Positions 28,959 through 55,760 of a stretch of 64,000 bases of DNA are shown in pieces. A program made the translations under genes and the position numbers. The DNA is from Naegleria gruberi. Taxonomy: Eukaryota. The stretch lies in NCBI GenBank assembly GCA_000004985.1, contig GG738871.1, one strand, 5' to 3'. Within the stretch, counting starts at the first letter, position 1. Each line of letters opens with the position of its first letter. The notes beneath the pieces were generated by a model. It was not told the DNA's origin. It saw only the letters and a list, made by a program, of their open reading frames with translations, and did not search any database.

Positions 28959-29390
28959 TTAGAATCTCAATGGGGAGAAGAATTCCTTCATAGCCTTACC
29001 ACCCTTCAAGTACTTAGCTTCAAACTTCTTCTTGATGGCCTTCTTGGCTTCCTTCTTTTGTGTAGCATCTTCAGAGGTCTTATCAGCAATCAAACCCTTG
29101 AAATCCATGTCCAAAGTGTGTCTAGTTGGCATCATATGTTGGTAGTTGACAGACTTGATGAAAACAGTGAGCTTGCTTCTTCTCTTCATGGCAGTCAATG
29201 ACATAGACTTGGTGACGGACTTTGGATATTGGTCAATACCGACAACAACAGCGTGTGGGAAGGACTTATCGTTGGCAGCATCATCGAAGTTCTTGGCAAT
29301 AACAGCCTTTCTGCCGGCATATCTACCTTGCAAGATGATGACGATTTTACCTGGCTTCAAAAACTTGGTTTGTTGGACTTCCTTTGCCAT
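28959..29390 (-). CDS. RPL27: 60S ribosomal protein L27 (eL27)
   Basis: Intronless 143-aa ORF. The segments KPGKIVIILQGRYAGRKAVIAKN and YNHMMPTRH...KFEAKY...FFSPLRF align along the full length of human RPL27 ([23 protein letters not shown]...YNYNHLMPTRY...KFEERY...FFQKLRF). Confidence 0.9.
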   Translation of the reverse strand: MAKEVQQTKFLKPGKIVIILQGRYAGRKAVIAKNFDDAANDKSFPHAVVVGIDQYPKSVTKSMSLTAMKRRSKLTVFIKSVNYQHMMPTRHTLDMDFKGLIADKTSEDATQKKEAKKAIKKKFEAKYLKGGKAMKEFFSPLRF

Positions 29391-29403
29391 TTCGTGTTTT
29401 GGA

Positions 29404-29421
29404 TTTTTTTTTCGAACAAAT
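29404..29421 (-). promoter_or_regulatory. Putative ribosomal-protein-gene promoter/TSS element (coding-strand TTGTTCGAAAAAAAAATC), 13 nt upstream of RPL27 ATG
   Basis: An identical 18-mer occurs upstream of RPL13A at 48622..48639, and I found no other copy in the window. Confidence 0.4.
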
Positions 29422-29658
29422 TTTTAGTTAACTAGCGATCCCCAACTTTACAACAAAGATAAAAATGAGCCATTTTTAACTCAATGCAAGGAAAACAACA
29501 AAACAAGCACCATGAAGTGACTTTGCTTCTTCTCCACCAACATTCCGAGAAGGTTTGACTCACCATAACATCTTCATCTTAACAAGTCTCTCACTACCAA
29601 TAGGTCTTCTTGTTGTTCTTGTTCATCTAATATTGATTGAAGGCAAAGAAAGAAAAAA

Positions 29659-33315: not shown

Positions 33316-35583
33316 TTATTCCAGAATTGAGAGTGAGATTATCATTTTAGTATTAGGATCTCTCTTCAAGTCGTACTTGTTCATTTCAATCATTCCAAGA
33401 TCGTATCCCTTCATACTACTCAAATCTTTAACAATTTGATCAGTTCCGAAATATGGATGGCTCACAACAGAATTATCAGTAAATCCATGTCCAAGAGTAA
33501 TACACTCAACTCCATTAATTGAAACAACATGTCCTTGATCAACTACCAAATTATAGACATAATCACAGGCAACATCTTGAGGTGATTTGATATCGATTGG
33601 GAATTTCCATTCACCCTTAACTCTTACAGGGTGATATGGGGTAATGTACATTCCATTCATTTCACACAATTTGACAATAGGGGAAGGAGTCTTGCTCTTC
33701 AAGACGCATAAAATAGTGGCATATGAATCACCATTCATGTTCTTAACTCTGTCTCCTTTCTTAATTTCAGAAACCTTCTTGACAGAGTTGTCATACATTG
33801 TGATTAATGAATTACCATCGAAGCAAGAACCACCTGCATTGTAGTATGAGCTCATGTTTGTTGGGGTGTTATAGCTGCCACCACCATAGGAATAGACATT
33901 TGATGGTTTTGGAGGAGGAAGTTTACAAAAGATGTCATCTGCAACAGATTGCAAAGCTTCAAACAAGCTTCCACCAAAGATTTGAACACTTGGGTCTTTG
34001 AAATTGTGGCATTGTTGCATCCAGTTAGCACGAAGGAGAGAAGGCAAATAGTGATAACCCCACTTATTCATGAACTCTTGTTTGGAGAAGGCAATAGATA
34101 CTTGACCTTCGTTTGTATTGTCACTCTTAATATCTCTAACTAGAGCACTGACACGTTCATCTGTAAAGGATGGTAATTTGGCAATAGTTTGCAAGAAGGA
34201 TTCTAATTGATGTTTGCATTCCTTACTACTGTCATCTCTGCTACTGTTACCATTTCTGTAGGTTTGAATACATTTTTCAACACATTCAATGAACATTAAT
34301 CTTGTCAAGTTGGCATCCATATCAGTAGCTTGTTCTGAGGAGAGTGATTGATTAACAGGTTCAACTTTTTCAATAGAATGGTGATTGTAAGTGAGATCAA
34401 CCTTAATGGCAGGCAAATTATTGGCATGCATATCGACATCAATAATATAATCTCTTGATTGTTGGAATTGAACTCCTCCCATTGAAATTGTGAATTGTTT
34501 TTCATTGGTACTGTTATTTCCATTTTGACTGGAACCGTAAACGTGTGAAATCTTGGCACCGTTCATTGAGGAAATGACCAACTCGGCTCTTCTAACAGCA
34601 GTACATAAAATATTACTCATCATGTTAACAAATGTTGTTCCAACCATGGAACAATCAGGAATATAAGAGTAAGCTCCACTTCCATTCATTGCAATATCTT
34701 TCAATAAGGCACTATCCAAACTGTATCCAAATCCAAAGCTGTGAATTGTGGAATTCAATGGATGTTCCTTAATGTACTTTTCAAGAGTTGGGACAATACC
34801 TCTTGGAGGATTAATGTTAGGTTCACCATCTGTGAATAGAATCAAACAAGTATTGGTCTTTGCACAGAGAGGATTATTAAGACTGGATTCCATTCCCAAT
34901 CTCAAACCATCCCATACATTGGTAGATCCTTCAGGTCCTAAATGTTCCAACTTTTCAATGGCCTTCTTCTTACCAACTGCATCCATTTTAGTGAGAGGAA
35001 GTTCCATTCTTGCAGAATCACTGAATGGAATGAGAGAAATTTGATCCTTTTCATTCATTAATTCAATAAGAGTTCTAACAGAGTGCTTGACCAAATCCAA
35101 TCTTGAAAATCCAGTATTTTCATTGGAAGAACTCAAATCTTCAGCACTAGATCCCATACTTCCACTCACATCGAGAATGCATACCAAATTACATGGTTGA
35201 CGTTGACCTCCAGTAGGTGGTGATACCTTAACATGAATTCTTCTCTTTGATTCACTCACTTGCTTTGAAACAATTGTCAAATTCAAAGAATGATCTTCAA
35301 TATCTTGCTCAACCAATGGTGTGACTCTATTCACAACAATAGGAGTATTTCCATGAACCAATTGTTCAATAGTATTTCTCAAAGCAATATTCGATACCAA
35401 CAACTCCTTGCTCATGGCTTCTCTTGTCAATGGTGAAGTAGCATGAATAGTCAACCAATGTTCAATTGCTTCTCTTTCATAGGTTTGACCATCGGTACCA
35501 ATAACAGGATCTTTCATAATTTCCTGTGTGATTGGACAATAAAATTCATTTGGATAATTTCTTTGAGTTGATGATGATGACAT
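33316..35583 (-). CDS. U-box - von Willebrand factor A - Hint/Vint-domain protein (putative self-processing E3 ligase)
   Basis: 755-aa intronless ORF. There is an N-terminal U-box (FYCPITQEIMKDPVIGTDGQTYEREAIEHWL). A vWA domain follows with the MIDAS motif (CILDVSGSMGSS...TDGEPN). The C-terminal Hint-like domain begins with a nucleophilic Cys (SCFDGNSLITMYDNSVKKVSEIKKGDRV) and has a TxxH block (ITPYHPVRV). Confidence 0.7.
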   Translation of the reverse strand: MSSSSTQRNYPNEFYCPITQEIMKDPVIGTDGQTYEREAIEHWLTIHATSPLTREAMSKELLVSNIALRNTIEQLVHGNTPIVVNRVTPLVEQDIEDHSLNLTIVSKQVSESKRRIHVKVSPPTGGQRQPCNLVCILDVSGSMGSSAEDLSSSNENTGFSRLDLVKHSVRTLIELMNEKDQISLIPFSDSARMELPLTKMDAVGKKKAIEKLEHLGPEGSTNVWDGLRLGMESSLNNPLCAKTNTCLILFTDGEPNINPPRGIVPTLEKYIKEHPLNSTIHSFGFGYSLDSALLKDIAMNGSGAYSYIPDCSMVGTTFVNMMSNILCTAVRRAELVISSMNGAKISHVYGSSQNGNNSTNEKQFTISMGGVQFQQSRDYIIDVDMHANNLPAIKVDLTYNHHSIEKVEPVNQSLSSEQATDMDANLTRLMFIECVEKCIQTYRNGNSSRDDSSKECKHQLESFLQTIAKLPSFTDERVSALVRDIKSDNTNEGQVSIAFSKQEFMNKWGYHYLPSLLRANWMQQCHNFKDPSVQIFGGSLFEALQSVADDIFCKLPPPKPSNVYSYGGGSYNTPTNMSSYYNAGGSCFDGNSLITMYDNSVKKVSEIKKGDRVKNMNGDSYATILCVLKSKTPSPIVKLCEMNGMYITPYHPVRVKGEWKFPIDIKSPQDVACDYVYNLVVDQGHVVSINGVECITLGHGFTDNSVVSHPYFGTDQIVKDLSSMKGYDLGMIEMNKYDLKRDPNTKMIISLSILE

Positions 35584-44659: not shown

Positions 44660-44783
44660 GATGAAAATTTTTTAATATTTTTTTCTGATGCAAAAAAAAT
44701 TTTATTTTTAATTGAATTATTAATTTTCTCTTTTCAAAACCATCACTGCTACGAGAAGTGTAAAGATAATTCTTATAAAACTC

Positions 44784-44979
44784 GATTATGAGAATGAATA
44801 GAATGCATTGATCCAACTCATTACATTGAAAAAAAAGAGGTGAAAAACTTTATTAATTACCATCAATTATAAAATTTACGATTATGAGAATGAATAGAAT
44901 GCATTGATCCAACTCATTACATTGAAAAAAAAGAGGTGAAAAAGCTTATCAATTACCATCAATTATAAAATTTACGATT
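44784..44979. repeat. Tandem direct repeat, 96-bp unit x about 2.04 copies (about 97% identical)
   Basis: The unit GATTATGAGAATGAATAGAATGCATTGATCCAACTCATTACATTGAAAAAAAAGAGGTGAAAAACTTTATTAATTACCATCAATTATAAAATTTAC occurs at 44784..44879 and again at 44880..44975 with 3 mismatches, followed by a partial third start (GATT). It lies in the divergent intergenic region between the rhodanese-like gene and the 45009 gene. Confidence 0.85.
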
Positions 44980-45008: not shown

Positions 45009-45593
45009 ATGAGAAACATCCTCAATCATCATACTTTTGAAGAGAATACAGTGCCACGACCACACGATCAGACAAAGAAAGCCCTAGATCCCTTTCTGAG
45101 GGAGGCAATGGAAGCACTCTCTATAAATTTACAAACTTTTATGAAGTATACTGATTTTCATGAGAGTAAGGAGGGAAGATCGTTAATATTTGGTGTCTCG
45201 GCTCCAACAATTAGTTTTAGTTGCTCGACGAATAATAGTGTTTCCATGTCTACTTCCATGATGAGGCAATCAATTATTGGAACTAGTTTGTTGCAATTTG
45301 ATCCTGATTGTGTTGAGGAAGAAGAAATTATTCTCACTGAATCGGAATACAAACAATTGGAGGAAATTTACTTTAATCCCCTCAAGTACTTGGCAGAAAC
45401 TCTGAAGATTTTGAATGAAAACAAGCCAACACAAATTGAAGAGGATAAGTATGGTCTTGAGGAACTTCATTATGATGATGAATTGGATCAAGATTCTAGT
45501 ATTATAACAATTCAGAAGGAAACACCAGAACAAGCTCCTCCACCAGCCAAACCATTAATAATTAGAGGAAGAGCTAAAAGAAAATTTTACTAG
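45009..45593 (+). CDS. Hypothetical protein (194 aa), acidic C-terminal half
   Basis: Clean ORF with no recognised domain. Confidence 0.35.
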   Translation: MRNILNHHTFEENTVPRPHDQTKKALDPFLREAMEALSINLQTFMKYTDFHESKEGRSLIFGVSAPTISFSCSTNNSVSMSTSMMRQSIIGTSLLQFDPDCVEEEEIILTESEYKQLEEIYFNPLKYLAETLKILNENKPTQIEEDKYGLEELHYDDELDQDSSIITIQKETPEQAPPPAKPLIIRGRAKRKFY

Positions 45594-47289: not shown

Positions 47290-47770
47290 TAGGCAATTTG
47301 AAAATATCCCTTCCAAAATCGCTGGAGACTTTTTGTCCACTTTTCACCATCAGAATTTTTTCCACCGGCTAGCTGGCAAAGTGGGAGGACAGCTTCCATT
47401 TCAACTTCTAATTCGATCATCACAACAATAAAAAATATTCGTGATGGTGGTAGTAAGCAAGAAAACAATTTAGAGCAATAACTTATTATTACTTCATGAA
47501 AACAAAAACTAACAATAAATTGCTTTATCACAACATCATTGGATAATATTGAGTTTTTTTCTTCTGTTTATTGTTCAAGTTTGCTATTGAAAAAGGTTTG
47601 TAGCTGGTGGACAAGCGTAAGACTGGGGCATCGAAATAGAAAGTAAATTAGAAGCCGTCCTCTCACTTTGCAAGCTCGGGGCTGGAAAAAAATCAAGCGA
47701 AAATTTTATCGTTTTTCGTCACAAAAATGAAGCTTGAAAATGGAAGGGATATTTGAAAACCATCTTGGTT
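47290..47770. repeat. Large imperfect inverted repeat (about 110-bp arms, about 80% identity, about 240-bp spacer)
   Basis: The reverse complement of 47300..47400 (GAAGCTGTCCTCCCACTTTGCCAGCTAGCCGGTGGAAAAA...GATTTTGGAAGGGATATTTTCAAATTG) matches 47640..47760 (GAAGCCGTCCTCTCACTTTGCAAGCTCGGGGCTGGAAAAA...GAAAATGGAAGGGATATTTGAAAACC). Confidence 0.5.
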
Positions 47771-47886: not shown

Positions 47887-48501
47887 TTAATAGCCTAATT
47901 CAGCCAACTTCTTGACAACAGTTTGGAATTCAGTGTTACCACTCAATTGTTCAGTAGCTTCACTCTTGAGATTTTGCAAAGTCTTGACTTCAGCAACGTA
48001 AGCTTGATTTTGTTGCTTTCTTTGTTCTTCGTATTTAACAACAACATCGTGATACTTCCAACCCATTCTCTTCAACAAGTCACCGACTCTAGTAACAGGT
48101 GAGCTTGGCTTCAAGATGGTAACAGCGAGAGCAGATGGACAGACGAATCTCTTAACTTGGTTGTATTGAGCTGGGACACCGTCGAAGAGTTCCAATCTAG
48201 CCAAAGCTTGTCTACCCTTTTCAGTCTTTCTGGAGACCATAGCTCTGATGATCTTGTAGAGATGTTGAGATGGAGCTCTGTGATGGAATGGACCCTTTCT
48301 TGGATTGGTGTTCATTCTCTTTCTCAAGTATGATTCGTAAGCTTCCTTGTTTCTCTTCATCTTACCTTGGATAAGGAGTTCTTCACATCTGACGACGACG
48401 ACCTTCTTTCCGCTCAAAGCTTCCTTGGCAACGTGGGCAGCGAGACGACCCAAGATGTGACCCTTACCATCGAGAACAACAGTACGATTGAATGTAGACA
48501 T
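47887..48501 (-). CDS. RPL13A: 60S ribosomal protein L13a (uL13)
   Basis: Intronless 204-aa ORF. The segment VVLDGKGHILGRLAAHVAKEALSGKKVVVVRCEELLIQG...PFHHRAPSQHLYKIIRAMVSRKT fits RPL13A along its length. A 5'-UTR intron is possible (GTACGT about 112 nt upstream of the ATG, acceptor ATTAAAG|ATG). Confidence 0.9.
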   Translation of the reverse strand: MSTFNRTVVLDGKGHILGRLAAHVAKEALSGKKVVVVRCEELLIQGKMKRNKEAYESYLRKRMNTNPRKGPFHHRAPSQHLYKIIRAMVSRKTEKGRQALARLELFDGVPAQYNQVKRFVCPSALAVTILKPSSPVTRVGDLLKRMGWKYHDVVVKYEEQRKQQNQAYVAEVKTLQNLKSEATEQLSGNTEFQTVVKKLAELGY

Positions 48502-48621
48502 CTTTAATGAATAATGATAATAACAATAATTGTTGTGAAGAGATTCAAATAGTACATCATCACAATAGGGGAAGTAAGTATGAGGTGAGTTTGACAGAAT
48601 AAAATGCTACGTACTTTTTGC

Positions 48622-48639
48622 GATTTTTTTTTCGAACAA
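48622..48639 (-). promoter_or_regulatory. Putative ribosomal-protein-gene promoter/TSS element, identical to the 18-mer upstream of RPL27
   Basis: This is the same 18-mer as at 29404..29421 (plus-strand GATTTTTTTTTCGAACAA). It lies about 120 nt upstream of the RPL13A ATG, or about 10 nt if the proposed 5'-UTR intron is removed. Confidence 0.4.
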
Positions 48640-49447
48640 GTTTTATAAAATATAGTGGGGTTGGAGTTTTACAATGAAAACATTTGTGAGCCAAAATTTG
48701 CTTGCCAAAAAAACTCTCTTCGGCAAACAAGAAAGAAGAGGCTCCTATGCAATAATAACAATTAGCTAATGTTGGACCAGAGGATATTGTAGGAATTATC
48801 AAACATGGGAAGTATGATCAACAACAAAGTATCATTTCATCAATCTTGCATAGTGATGAGAGAAAATTAATATTCATGTGTTTTGATCATCAAACAAGAG
48901 CCATACATGGCACGGAAATCTATTGAATATAATTTTTGGATAAATTAACAGGAACACAAATACAAAACAATTAGGTATTGCCATCATCATGGAGTTCTTC
49001 CTGGTCATTTGTGAATTATTCATAGAGCTGCAACATCCGTGTCTTCTGAAAATTTTCTATTTTCAAAATCATTCTTGAATTTGAAAGTTCTTGTGAATGA
49101 TGAAAAACTCTTCATTCCTTAGAAATAGGCACATTTCACCTTAAACAATGATATTGACCAATAAGAGTGGTAATGTTGATTGTTAGGATACTTTGCTTCT
49201 CACATATTCATAATAATAGACAAACCATTGGTTGTTTTCATTGACATGTGGTAATCTTCAATCCTATGACGAAGCAACCTCCTCAACACTCGACACTGGA
49301 TAAGAAGCTCTCTATAGCTTAATGAAAAGAGAAGGTATTGGTGTTGATAGAATAGCATAAGAATGTCATGACGCATTGGGTAGAGAAACTCAATTACCTA
49401 GATTACTTTATCAAGCACAAATTTTGCGACATTTGATTTCAGTGTGC

Positions 49448-49520
49448 AGCCCCGCTAGCTCAGTCGGTAGAGCGTTGGACTTTTAATCCAACGGTCGTGG
49501 GTTCGAGCCCCACGTGGGGC
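49448..49520 (+). tRNA. tRNA-Lys (anticodon UUU)
   Basis: GCCCCGCTAGCTCAGTCGGTAGAGCGTTGGACTTTTAATCCAACGGTCGTGGGTTCGAGCCCCACGTGGGGCG forms a canonical cloverleaf with anticodon loop CTTTTAA. There is no intron. Confidence 0.9.
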
Positions 49521-49634
49521 GGTTGCTTTTAGCTTTTTCAAAACTCCGATTGTAAAGATTTTTTAAAAGAGGAGACATCTTTGCTGGATGAGTTTCGATA
49601 TTGCATCAGGATCCACAAAAAGAATAAGAAAAAA

Positions 49635-54665: not shown

Positions 54666-55760
54666 ATGCAACGTGATGGAGTTGACGAAAAGTTTATTGA
54701 AATATATGATAGTAGTATGAACTGGTTTGTAAACTTTTTCAAAAAAAAAATGTCATCACTTGATAGCTCTTCCTCCCTTTCGGAAAGAAAATTGAACAAA
54801 CAAGAAGACTGCTCTAAAATTATTCTCTTTGATTTTGTGTGCAATAGTCAATCAAGTTTACATTCCGATAAAGCTCGAAATGATCATCACCAATTATTAT
54901 CACTCCTAAAGAAGAAGATTAGCACGCCTAAAGGCGTGAGCTTTCCACTCGCTACCTATTCATCAATTGATGCTGTTCAAAGTTTGCCAACTGATTTCTT
55001 TTCCTATGAAGTTAAAATTCTCTACAAGTACAATGCCATTCTTTTGGGTGGGAATAACAAGACATTCTATTTATTAGATATTGATACTAGAAAAGTGAAA
55101 CAGATTATTGCTGTGGAGGGATTGAGAGGGAATTGTTTTCATGTGGAGGAGTGTGCTATTGATGGACAGGATTATATTTATGTGACTAGTTGTAATTTAA
55201 TCAAATATAATTTGACCATGTTGATTCAGGGTAAATCATCTCACGAGTGCTTGGTGTGGAGGTCGGATTATCAATTACCTAATTCGTGGGGAGTGGCAAA
55301 TTTCAAGAATGATGTGTATGTGTGTGATTTTGAGAAGGGATTATTGAGATTTGAGAAGAGTAACGGCAAGTTCATTTCTTTAAATCGTGGAAATGGTATG
55401 TATGGTGTTGCCTTCACTCCAGAAGATGAAATGATATTGAGTCATGCAGATCATTTTGAGCAACGATTGGAAATTCATACTATGAATCAGAATGGAGAGT
55501 GGATTTTAAGAAATGTCAAGAAAAATTCAGAAACGAACATCTTTATGGATCCATATAGTATTTTCTATGAACCCATTACACAATACATTTATGTGAGCGA
55601 TTGTACAAATGGAAAGATTGTCGTTTTAGATAAATTATCACTCAATGTGGTGAAAAATATTGAGGGTTTGAGTATGAATTATGCAATTGGTGTAGATAAA
55701 AGGAATGGAAACTTGTATGTTTGTACTGGAAATGGTGGAACATTACATTGGATACATTAA
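54666..55760 (+). CDS. NHL-repeat beta-propeller protein (start uncertain; the open frame extends upstream to 54450 without an ATG)
   Basis: NHL-type blades (DVYVCDFEKGLLRF, GMYGVAFTPEDEMILSHADHFEQRLEIH, YIYVSDCTNGKIVVLD, NLYVCTGNGGTLHWI). An upstream exon may exist. Confidence 0.5.
   Translation: MQRDGVDEKFIEIYDSSMNWFVNFFKKKMSSLDSSSSLSERKLNKQEDCSKIILFDFVCNSQSSLHSDKARNDHHQLLSLLKKKISTPKGVSFPLATYSSIDAVQSLPTDFFSYEVKILYKYNAILLGGNNKTFYLLDIDTRKVKQIIAVEGLRGNCFHVEECAIDGQDYIYVTSCNLIKYNLTMLIQGKSSHECLVWRSDYQLPNSWGVANFKNDVYVCDFEKGLLRFEKSNGKFISLNRGNGMYGVAFTPEDEMILSHADHFEQRLEIHTMNQNGEWILRNVKKNSETNIFMDPYSIFYEPITQYIYVSDCTNGKIVVLDKLSLNVVKNIEGLSMNYAIGVDKRNGNLYVCTGNGGTLHWIH

What the first reader, a model, noticed from the sequence alone, without database searches (positions are those of the whole stretch)
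29404..29421. Identical 18-mer GATTTTTTTTTCGAACAA (coding-strand TTGTTCGAAAAAAAAATC) upstream of both ribosomal-protein genes
The only two ribosomal-protein genes in the window (RPL27 and RPL13A, about 19 kb apart, both on the minus strand) share a perfectly identical 18-nt element just upstream of the ATG. It is 13 nt upstream for RPL27. For RPL13A it is about 120 nt upstream, but only about 10 nt if a plausible GTACGT...AG 5'-UTR intron is removed. I did not see the element elsewhere in the window. It looks like a dedicated RP-gene core promoter/TSS element (a TOP-like A-run following a TTCGAA palindrome), or a site of co-regulation.
Basis: seen in the sequence. Interest (0 to 1): 0.55.

Follow-up and report, generated by a model that had tools for sequence, protein, structure and literature searches.

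The report
Shared promoter box of Naegleria ribosomal-protein genes
The identical 18-base sequence in front of the two ribosomal-protein genes is real and is one block of a three-block promoter module kept in front of the same two genes in five amoeba taxa, so it looks like this lineage's own switch for making ribosomal proteins together, although that is shown here for only two genes.

Summary
TTGTTCGAAAAAAAAATC (coding strand) lies at 29402-29419, not 29404-29421, and again at 48622-48639. It ends 11 nt before the RPL27 ATG and 120 nt before the RPL13A ATG.

The window is Naegleria gruberi. The 18-mer is the N. gruberi form of a conserved A-run box, TTGTT(C)|G-A8-9-T-[A/C]. This box is the third block of an oriented module: (A)TG(G)C(T)CAT plus a T-run, then TTC[A/G]TTGTAAA, then 32-35 nt, then the A-run box, then a C/A-rich leader.

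All eight orthologous promoters examined carry the TTGTAA[A/T] box and the A-run box (RPL27 and RPL13A; N. gruberi, N. fowleri, two unnamed Naegleria lineages, Willaertia magna). In about 140 kb of heterolobosean DNA the composite occurs only there. Neighbouring non-RP promoters show no conserved blocks.

The proposed RPL13A 5'UTR intron (48614-48502) is supported by comparison: the other species lack it and keep the box 19-30 nt from the ATG.

The TTCGAA palindrome is specific to N. gruberi, and the element is not TOP-like.

Best reading: a lineage-specific RP-gene core promoter or 5'-leader element. Genome-wide enrichment and transcript 5' ends could not be tested.

The parts
29402..29419 (-). 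A-run box (block 3) of the RPL27 promoter: TTGTTCGAAAAAAAAATC. This is the reported 18-mer.
   Evidence: Exact match. Aligned with T(C)GAAAAAAAAT[A/C] in three other taxa.
29447..29453 (-). TTGTAAA box (block 2) of the RPL27 promoter, 33 nt upstream of the G of the A-run.
   Evidence: Invariant [A/G]TTGTAAA column in alignment A2. Spacing.
29466..29472 (-). TGGCTCA (block 1, followed by a T-run) of the RPL27 promoter.
   Evidence: Shared with RPL13A at the same offset, 53/54 nt before the 18-mer. Related GCCAT/CTCAT plus T-run in seven of the eight promoters.
29391..29401 (-). C/A-rich leader CAAAACACGAA between the A-run box and the RPL27 ATG.
   Evidence: The leaders of all eight promoters are C/A-rich.
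28959..29390 (-). RPL27 (eL27) coding sequence, 143 codons plus stop, no intron.
   Evidence: Pfam Ribosomal_L27e, E = 8.6e-25. 99% identical to the N. gruberi protein P0001.
48622..48639 (-). A-run box (block 3) of the RPL13A promoter: an identical copy of the 18-mer.
   Evidence: Exact match. The equivalent box is present in N. fowleri, a Naegleria sp. and W. magna.
48668..48676 (-). CATTGTAAA box (block 2) of the RPL13A promoter, 34 nt upstream of the G of the A-run.
   Evidence: TTTTCATTGTAAA is shared with non-orthologous RP promoters of other species.
48687..48693 (-). TGGCTCA (block 1) of the RPL13A promoter.
48615..48621 (-). GCAAAAA, the rest of the inferred first (non-coding) exon.
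   Evidence: After intron removal it is joined directly to the ATG.
48502..48614 (-). Candidate 113-nt 5'UTR intron, GTACGT...TTCATTAAAG.
   Evidence: Absent from the N. fowleri, Naegleria sp. and W. magna orthologues, where the box lies 19-30 nt from the ATG. Its splice signals resemble real introns of the window, GTAAGT...ATCATTAG. It contains upstream ATGs. It carries a 3-nt indel between two N. gruberi strains.
47887..48501 (-). RPL13A (uL13) coding sequence, 204 codons plus stop.
   Evidence: Pfam Ribosomal_L13. 100% identical to the N. gruberi protein P0121.

Best explanation
The 18-mer is the Naegleria gruberi version of the gene-proximal block of a three-block, strictly oriented promoter module that cytosolic ribosomal-protein genes share in Naegleria and Willaertia (Heterolobosea).

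The module reads 5' to 3' on the coding strand:
- block 1: (A)TG(G)C(T)CAT followed by a T-run
- block 2: TTC[A/G]TTGTAAA
- a spacer of 32-35 nt in Naegleria (40-47 nt in Willaertia)
- block 3: TTGTT(C)|G-A8-9-T-[A/C]-[C/G]
- a short C/A-rich leader, then the ATG

Proposed mechanism: block 2 acts as the TATA-like positioning element. Block 3 spans or immediately follows the transcription start. The invariant pyrimidine-G junction fits the pyrimidine/purine rule of initiators. The A-run box would then form the 5' end of every RP mRNA. A dedicated factor that recognises the box would give the RP genes a common output, at the DNA level and possibly also on the mRNA.

Shown: the sequence, its conservation, its orientation, its position, its restriction to the RP genes in the sample, and the comparative support for the intron.

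Inferred: the position of the start site, the roles assigned to the blocks, the existence of a factor, and extension to the other roughly 77 RP families.
For: 1. Organism and orthology. The window is N. gruberi (P0001 99%, P0121 100% identical). Neighbour genes are syntenic: YbaB-like next to RPL27 and a 2OG-Fe(II) oxygenase after RPL13A.

2. Conservation. All eight species-by-gene promoters carry TTGTAA[A/T], then 32-47 nt, then [C/T]GAAAAAAAA, in the same orientation, 14-33 nt before the ATG. The two exceptions have a probable 5'UTR intron.

3. Motif-level sharing. The longest common substrings between non-orthologous RP promoters of different species are block 2 or block 3. Examples are TGTTTTCATTGTAAAA (16 nt), GAAAAAAAATACGTC (15 nt) and, between orthologues, AAATTTGTTGAAAAAAAATA (20 nt), against a shuffle maximum of 10-14. 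Orthologous upstream regions of neighbouring non-RP genes give only 7-13 nt once overlap with coding sequence is set aside.

4. Specificity. The composite pattern hits only RP upstreams in 139.5 kb on both strands, which holds about 35 non-RP genes in the window and about 50 called genes in the other loci, including a mitochondrial L24. The window's non-RP upstreams lack the module.

5. Position follows the promoter, not the ATG. In N. gruberi RPL13A the module sits 113 nt further upstream but keeps its internal spacing. Excising GTACGT...AG restores a short leader. A first exon needs the start site to lie at or before the box.

6. The predicted leaders fold no better than shuffles, so no RNA structure is involved.

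7. A second N. gruberi strain has no change in the module.

8. Lineage-specific RP promoter motifs are the rule in eukaryotes (PMC8047918; PMC10253590 and PMC5737516).
Against: - Only two RP families could be examined. I found no way to reach other Naegleria RP genes with these tools.
- There are no transcript 5' ends, so the start site is inferred.
- A-runs just before the ATG are common in N. gruberi genes in general. Part of the signal could therefore be ordinary leader composition.
- The spacing from block 2 to block 3 is 40-47 nt in Willaertia, which fits poorly with a strict TATA-to-start distance.
- TTGTAAA is a poor match to TATAWAW.
- A more distant eL27 gene of unknown taxon (L169) shows TTGGCTCAC and CGAAAAAAC but no clear module.
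- The sample of non-RP genes contains no known highly expressed gene as a control.
Confidence: 0.6

Rival explanations
1. The module is a general strong or housekeeping core promoter of Naegleria, used by many highly expressed genes. Under this reading the two RP genes are simply the only such genes in the window.
For: TTGTAAA occurs 54 times in the window, and I estimate about 28 from base composition. It lies within 30-120 nt upstream of a few non-RP ORFs (21053, 24257, 27548, 49581). A-rich leaders are general. None of the non-RP genes sampled is known to be highly expressed.
Against: No non-RP gene among about 85 sampled has the box and the A-run box together. The few TTGTAAA copies near other genes have no fixed position and no block 3. 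Neighbouring genes' promoters show no conserved blocks across species.
Confidence: 0.17
2. The box works mainly on the mRNA. As an unstructured A-rich 5' leader element it would co-regulate RP mRNA translation or stability, a functional counterpart of the metazoan TOP/LARP1 system. It would not be a transcriptional element. This rival overlaps with the best explanation.
For: The box is always on the coding strand, close to the ATG in the mature mRNA, upstream of the 5'UTR intron, and followed by a C/A-rich unstructured leader. The first exon of RPL13A requires it to be transcribed if the intron is real.
Against: The fixed 32-35 nt distance to the TTGTAAA box in Naegleria points to a DNA-level geometry. 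The T/G-rich 5' half, TTGTT(C), is conserved as well, which is not needed for an A-tract leader. No RNA data are available.
Confidence: 0.15
3. Blocks 2 and 3 are binding sites for an upstream sequence-specific activator rather than core-promoter or initiator elements. CATTGTA and TTTGTT resemble HMG-box/Sox-type sites, and TGTAAAC resembles a forkhead-type site. These resemblances are from my memory and were not tested.
For: Both blocks contain [A/T]TTGT[A/T], and the motif is about 22 nt long, which is long for a single site. Forkhead-like and HMG proteins act at RP promoters in yeasts (PMC10253590, for S. pombe Fhl1).
Against: Orientation and distance to the ATG are fixed in all eight promoters, which is atypical for activator sites. 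No factor could be examined. No canonical TATA lies between the blocks and the ATG, except in N. gruberi RPL13A.
Confidence: 0.06
4. The identity of the two copies is a chance low-complexity coincidence, or reflects a recent duplication, gene conversion or mobile-element insertion.
For: The sequence is of low complexity (A9). The 18/18 identity within N. gruberi is higher than the identity between orthologous sites across species.
Against: About 4e-6 copies are expected per window. The sites are ancestral, being present at orthologous positions in five taxa. The flanks between the blocks are not alike. No repeat family is involved.
Confidence: 0.02

Closest known systems
HomolD/HomolE promoter of fission-yeast ribosomal-protein genes (PMC10253590)
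   Same: A lineage-specific, RP-gene-restricted module with a TATA-replacing core element at a fixed distance from the start and a second conserved box upstream. Most of the regulon shares the same short sequences.
   Different: The sequences are unrelated. CAGTCACA and ACCCTACCCT are absent from all eight promoters. The roles of the Naegleria blocks are inferred, not demonstrated, and only two genes have been seen.
TCT initiator / 5'-terminal oligopyrimidine (TOP) motif of metazoan RP genes, with TRF2/M1BP in Drosophila (PMC5737516, PMC8047918)
   Same: A dedicated element at or next to the start site that would give all RP mRNAs a common 5' end. It could allow both specialised transcription initiation and translational co-regulation.
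   Different: The composition is the opposite, G plus 8-9 A rather than C plus pyrimidines. No start-site data exist. There is no evidence for LARP1-type control.
Plant telo-box (AAACCCTAA) with site II motifs, and Toxoplasma TRP motifs in RP promoters (telo-box from my own knowledge; Toxoplasma: PMC2688925)
   Same: Short, position-biased, gene-proximal motifs enriched in RP and translation genes of one lineage, often inside or near the 5'UTR and combined with a second upstream motif.
   Different: The sequences differ. In those systems enrichment was shown genome-wide and by reporter assays. Here it rests on two gene families in five taxa.
Poly(dA:dT) tracts and T-rich elements of budding-yeast RP promoters (own knowledge)
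   Same: Homopolymeric A/T runs of 8-9 bp close to the start, together with a T-run between blocks 1 and 2. These could exclude nucleosomes.
   Different: Nucleosome-excluding tracts work in either orientation and tolerate flank changes. Here the orientation is fixed in 8 of 8 promoters and the flanks TTGTT(C) and T[A/C][C/G] are conserved.

Membership tests
TOP / TCT initiator | Start-site C followed by an uninterrupted run of 4-15 pyrimidines on the coding strand | tested here: not met
   The coding strand reads TTGTT(C)GAAAAAAAA(A)T. The conserved run is adenines and the short pyrimidine stretch is broken by G. C-plus-pyrimidine runs in the eight upstreams have no common position.
TOP / TCT initiator | The element coincides with the mRNA 5' end | not testable with these tools
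   No transcript data could be reached. The contigs found for the proteins were genomic or metagenomic.
Lineage-specific RP-gene promoter motif (RP regulon element) | Present upstream of most RP genes and rare upstream of other genes | tested here: inconclusive
   Present at 2 of 2 RP families and in 8 of 8 species-by-gene promoters. Absent from about 85 non-RP genes in 139.5 kb. The other roughly 77 RP families could not be reached.
Lineage-specific RP-gene promoter motif (RP regulon element) | Conserved across related species while the surrounding non-coding DNA has diverged | tested here: met
   Blocks of 12-20 nt are shared across Naegleria and Willaertia, including between non-orthologous promoters. 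Control promoters give 7-13 nt.
Lineage-specific RP-gene promoter motif (RP regulon element) | Fixed orientation and position relative to the gene start | tested here: met
   Same strand in 8 of 8. The box lies 14-33 nt from the ATG, or the equivalent after removal of a 5'UTR intron. Block 2 to block 3 is 32-35 nt in six Naegleria promoters.
TATA box plus initiator core promoter | TATAWAW about 25-35 nt upstream of a pyrimidine/purine start | tested here: inconclusive
   TTGTAAA is not TATAWAW. A canonical TATA is found only in N. gruberi RPL13A. The junction before the A-run is pyrimidine-G in 8 of 8, 39-42 nt after the first T of the box. The start site is unknown.
S. pombe HomolD/HomolE | CAGTCACA (HomolD) and ACCCTACCCT (HomolE) sequences | tested here: not met
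   No match on either strand in any of the eight upstream regions.
Spliceosomal 5'UTR intron (RPL13A, 48614-48502) | GT...AG borders with the host's splice-site context | tested here: met
   GTACGT...TTCATTAAAG, compared with the window's ABC-transporter introns GTAAGT...ATCATTAG and GTAAGT...CATAATAG.
Spliceosomal 5'UTR intron (RPL13A, 48614-48502) | Removal restores the arrangement seen in intron-less orthologues and removes upstream ATGs | tested here: met
   The distance from box to ATG goes from 120 nt to 7 nt, against 19-30 nt in the three other species. The segment holds ATGATG, which opens a 19-codon upstream ORF.
Spliceosomal 5'UTR intron (RPL13A, 48614-48502) | Spliced junction observed in RNA | not testable with these tools
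   No RNA-derived contigs were available.
Structured RNA element or known RNA family | A fold more stable than shuffles, or an Rfam match | tested here: not met
   Leader z-scores were -0.05, +1.23 and +0.14. Rfam found only 5S rRNA and two tRNAs elsewhere in the window.

The most novel reading that the evidence does not exclude
Ribosomal-protein mRNAs of Naegleria and Willaertia all begin with an invariant G-A8-9 'terminal oligo-adenine' leader. Transcription would start at the pyrimidine|G junction of the box, possibly with polymerase slippage on the T-tract of the template lengthening the A-run. This 5' end would be read by a dedicated factor to couple RP synthesis to growth, encystment or the amoeba-to-flagellate switch. 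That would be an independently evolved purine counterpart of the metazoan TOP system.
Probability: 0.12. Interest if true: 0.75.

Novelty: new member of a known kind. Interest (0 to 1): 0.45.

Why it matters
Almost nothing is known about promoters in Heterolobosea, a deep eukaryotic branch that includes the brain-eating amoeba N. fowleri. I found no paper describing an RP-gene or core-promoter motif for Naegleria.

A compact module of about 75 bp that marks RP genes would be useful in several ways:
- It would give a first handle on the RP regulon and on the growth control of translation capacity in this lineage.
- It would be a ready-made strong promoter and leader for the still difficult transfection of Naegleria.
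- It would add another independent solution to the general problem of co-expressing about 80 RP genes.
- It would help correct gene models by marking true 5' ends and 5'UTR introns.

Tried and rejected
1. Metagenome scan with CATTGTAAAN{31,36}YGAAAAAAAA. These were chance hits in bacterial, phage and other DNA with no RP gene downstream.

2. The 18-mer in IMG/VR gave one chance hit in a 48% GC contig. In 596 Gb of prokaryote genomes it gave 37 chance hits and no eukaryotic contaminant. These are useful only as a background rate.

3. I looked for RNA-derived contigs of RPL13A to see the 5' end and the splice junction. Only genomic metagenome contigs exist.

4. I checked the PDB for a Naegleria ribosome as a source of other Naegleria RP sequences. 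There is none; the best hit is S. pombe.

5. I tried to extend the window by 10 kb at each end through the end genes. Neither protein is on record exactly.

6. The third protein search was not spent. A query from another organism would list its own relatives first, because Naegleria RPs are only about 50-55% identical to others. No further Naegleria RP family could therefore be reached.

7. The more distant eL27 locus L169, of unknown taxon, has partial resemblances only.

8. Known RP-promoter motifs (HomolD/E, telo-box, site II, Rap1, Tbf1, Cbf1, DRE, IFHL) show no recurrent match: most are absent, and site II and CACGTG each occur once, in a single promoter.

9. RNA structure in the leader: none.

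10. A snoRNA in the intron: there is a C-box-like GTGATGA but no D box and no Rfam hit.

11. The polyubiquitin-like gene in L008 cannot serve as a highly expressed control, because it is not a true polyubiquitin.

Full report
**Observation**

The 18-mer GATTTTTTTTTCGAACAA occurs exactly twice in the window, at 29402-29419 and 48622-48639. The only other site within 3 mismatches is an unrelated T-run at 54735.

On the minus (coding) strand both copies read TTGTTCGAAAAAAAAATC. They lie upstream of ORFs that Pfam assigns to Ribosomal_L27e and Ribosomal_L13.
- The RPL27 copy ends 11 nt before the ATG at 29390.
- The RPL13A copy ends 120 nt before the ATG at 48501.

No other RP gene was found among the 36 other ORFs of at least 150 aa or among the 34 smaller intergenic ORFs.

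Chance can be dismissed. The same 18-mer was found only 37 times in 596 Gb of prokaryote genomes and once in IMG/VR. That rate gives about 4e-6 expected copies per 64 kb.

**Organism**

The two proteins are 99% and 100% identical to predicted proteins of Naegleria gruberi, on a 417,575-bp scaffold. Closely related genomic copies occur in an ENA/Logan metagenome (L001, L009, L010).

**The 18-mer is part of a larger module**

Aligning the two N. gruberi upstream regions shows two further shared blocks at the same offsets: TGGCTCA 53/54 nt and TTGTAAA 34/35 nt before the 18-mer.

I then fetched the orthologues:
- RPL27 from two unnamed Naegleria lineages (L002; L003/L004) and from Willaertia magna (L005).
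- RPL13A from N. fowleri (L006), from the unnamed lineage of L003 (L007) and from W. magna (L008).

Synteny confirms orthology. A YbaB-like gene is divergent from RPL27, and a 2OG-Fe(II) oxygenase follows RPL13A.

All eight promoters carry TTC[A/G]TTGTAA[A/T], then a spacer, then T(C)|GAAAAAAAA(A)T[A/C][C/G]. The spacer is 32-35 nt in the six Naegleria promoters and 40-47 nt in the two Willaertia promoters. Seven of the eight also have GCCAT/GCTCA/CTCAT followed by a T-run about 10-20 nt before the TTGTAAA box.

The base before the G of the A-run is always a pyrimidine. The sequence from the A-run to the ATG is C/A-rich, for example CCAAAACATACCCAAACC.

N. fowleri and W. magna RPL13A read TTTGTTGAAAAAAAATA.

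**Constraint and specificity**

- Between promoters of different genes in different species, the longest common substrings are almost always block 2 or block 3: 12-16 nt, and 20 nt between the N. fowleri and W. magna RPL13A promoters. Shuffle maxima were 10-14.
- Orthologous upstream regions of the neighbouring non-RP genes share only 7-13 nt, apart from one case that overlaps coding sequence.
- The pattern TTGTAA[AT].{28,50}GAAAAAAAA, searched on both strands of 139.5 kb (the window plus L001-L010), matched only the RP upstreams. That sequence holds roughly 35 non-RP genes in the window and about 50 called genes elsewhere, including a mitochondrial L24.
- The window's other upstream regions lack the module. 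Many do have an A-run directly abutting the ATG, so A-richness alone is not special.
- A second N. gruberi strain shows no change within the module.

**The intron**

In N. gruberi RPL13A the whole module keeps its internal spacing but sits 113 nt further from the ATG than in the other three species. The extra segment, 48614-48502, has these properties:
- It starts GTACGT and ends TTCATTAAAG directly before the ATG.
- It resembles the window's clear coding introns, GTAAGT...ATCATTAG and GTAAGT...CATAATAG.
- It contains upstream ATGs.
- It carries a 3-nt indel between strains.

Removing it leaves 7 nt between box and ATG. The unnamed Naegleria RPL27 (L003) has a comparable GTTCGT...CACAG segment.

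If the intron is real, transcription must start at or before the box. Otherwise the first exon would be shorter than about 10 nt.

**Mechanism**

The fixed orientation, the fixed distance to the TTGTAAA box, the pyrimidine|G junction, the unstructured C/A-rich leader and the way the module stays with the promoter rather than with the ATG all point the same way. They fit a core-promoter arrangement in which block 2 positions initiation and block 3 lies at the start of the transcript.

A dedicated DNA-binding or RNA-binding factor would then give the RP genes common control. These steps are inference.

The rivals are:
- a general strong-promoter architecture
- a purely post-transcriptional leader element
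- activator binding sites of HMG or forkhead type (a resemblance I recall, not one I tested)

None of these is excluded. Chance, duplication and mobile-element explanations are excluded by the orthologous conservation.

**Comparison with known systems**

None of the RP-promoter motifs I know from other lineages recurs in the eight promoters: HomolD/E, telo-box, Rap1, Tbf1, DRE and IFHL are absent, and site II and the Cbf1 site CACGTG each occur once, in a single promoter. The element is not a TOP or TCT motif, because the conserved run is adenines.

In kind it matches what is known elsewhere. RP genes carry lineage-specific shared promoter motifs with no pan-eukaryotic consensus (PMC8047918). 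Examples are the HomolD core element with the Fhl1-bound HomolE box in fission yeast (PMC10253590) and the TCT/TRF2/M1BP system in flies (PMC5737516).

I found no description of such a motif for Naegleria or Heterolobosea. I therefore rate it a new member of a known kind.

**Limits**

- Only two RP families could be examined.
- No RNA-derived sequence was available.
- No Naegleria ribosome is in the PDB to supply further RP sequences.
- Attempts to extend the window failed.
- Genome-wide enrichment and 5'-end mapping remain the decisive tests.

Noticed in passing
window 28959-29020 (RPL27 3' end); protein P0001: The public N. gruberi gene model for RPL27 (P0001, 136 aa) ends ...AKYLKGAVPFLW. 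The uninterrupted ORF ends ...AKYLKGGKAMKEFFSPLRF, as in the two other Naegleria lineages and W. magna. The model seems to have spliced at GG|TAAGG into the 3'UTR, which would make its C-terminus a false intron call.
   Followed up: partly
window 47304-47759: About 455 bp between RPL13A and the 2OG-Fe(II) oxygenase gene are present in the window but absent from the otherwise near-identical N. gruberi-like contig L009. The segment is bounded by inverted repeats of about 17 bp (TTGAAAATATCCCTTCCA / TGGAAGGGATATTTGAAAA) and has no other copy in the window. It looks like a polymorphic MITE-like insertion.
   Followed up: partly
window 44783-44979: A 96-bp unit is repeated 2.1 times in tandem (97% matches) just upstream of the ORF that starts at 45009. 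Each unit contains TTGAAAAAAAAGAGG.
   Followed up: partly
window 20373-20491 (+), 20879-20949 (-), 49449-49521 (+): There is a 5S rRNA gene with a tRNA-Gly(GCC) about 400 bp away. A tRNA-Lys(UUU) lies in the divergent intergenic region between RPL13A and the FMN-binding-domain gene, about 750 bp upstream of the RP module.
   Followed up: no
window, upstream of most ORFs (for example 6871, 10577, 27548, 29659, 33004, 49635, 53992): Most N. gruberi genes in the window have a run of 5-9 A directly abutting the ATG (AAAAAAAATG). This looks like a general start-codon context. It differs from the RP box, which is set back from the ATG and followed by T[A/C].
   Followed up: partly
L003 1983-2078 (unnamed Naegleria sp., RPL27 upstream): The distance from A-run box to ATG is 96 nt here, and the region contains GTTCGT...CATCACAG. 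This is probably a second, independent 5'UTR intron in an RP gene of another Naegleria lineage.
   Followed up: partly
window about 48527-48540 (inside the RPL13A intron) and L007 upstream of RPL13A: The 14-mer TCTCTTCACAACAA is shared between the N. gruberi intron and a position upstream of the TTGTAAA box in the unnamed Naegleria sp. (shuffle maximum 11). It is unexplained and may be chance.
   Followed up: no
window 33316-35583 (-): This ORF combines U-box, VWA, Vwaint and Vint (Hint-like) domains, a Hedgehog/intein-type module in a heterolobosean protein.
   Followed up: no
L169 860-955 (eL27 gene of unknown taxon, 54% identical): The upstream region contains TTGGCTCAC, identical to the N. 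gruberi RPL13A block 1 with its flanks, and CGAAAAAAC, but no TTGTAAA box. Block 1 may be older than the rest of the module.
   Followed up: no
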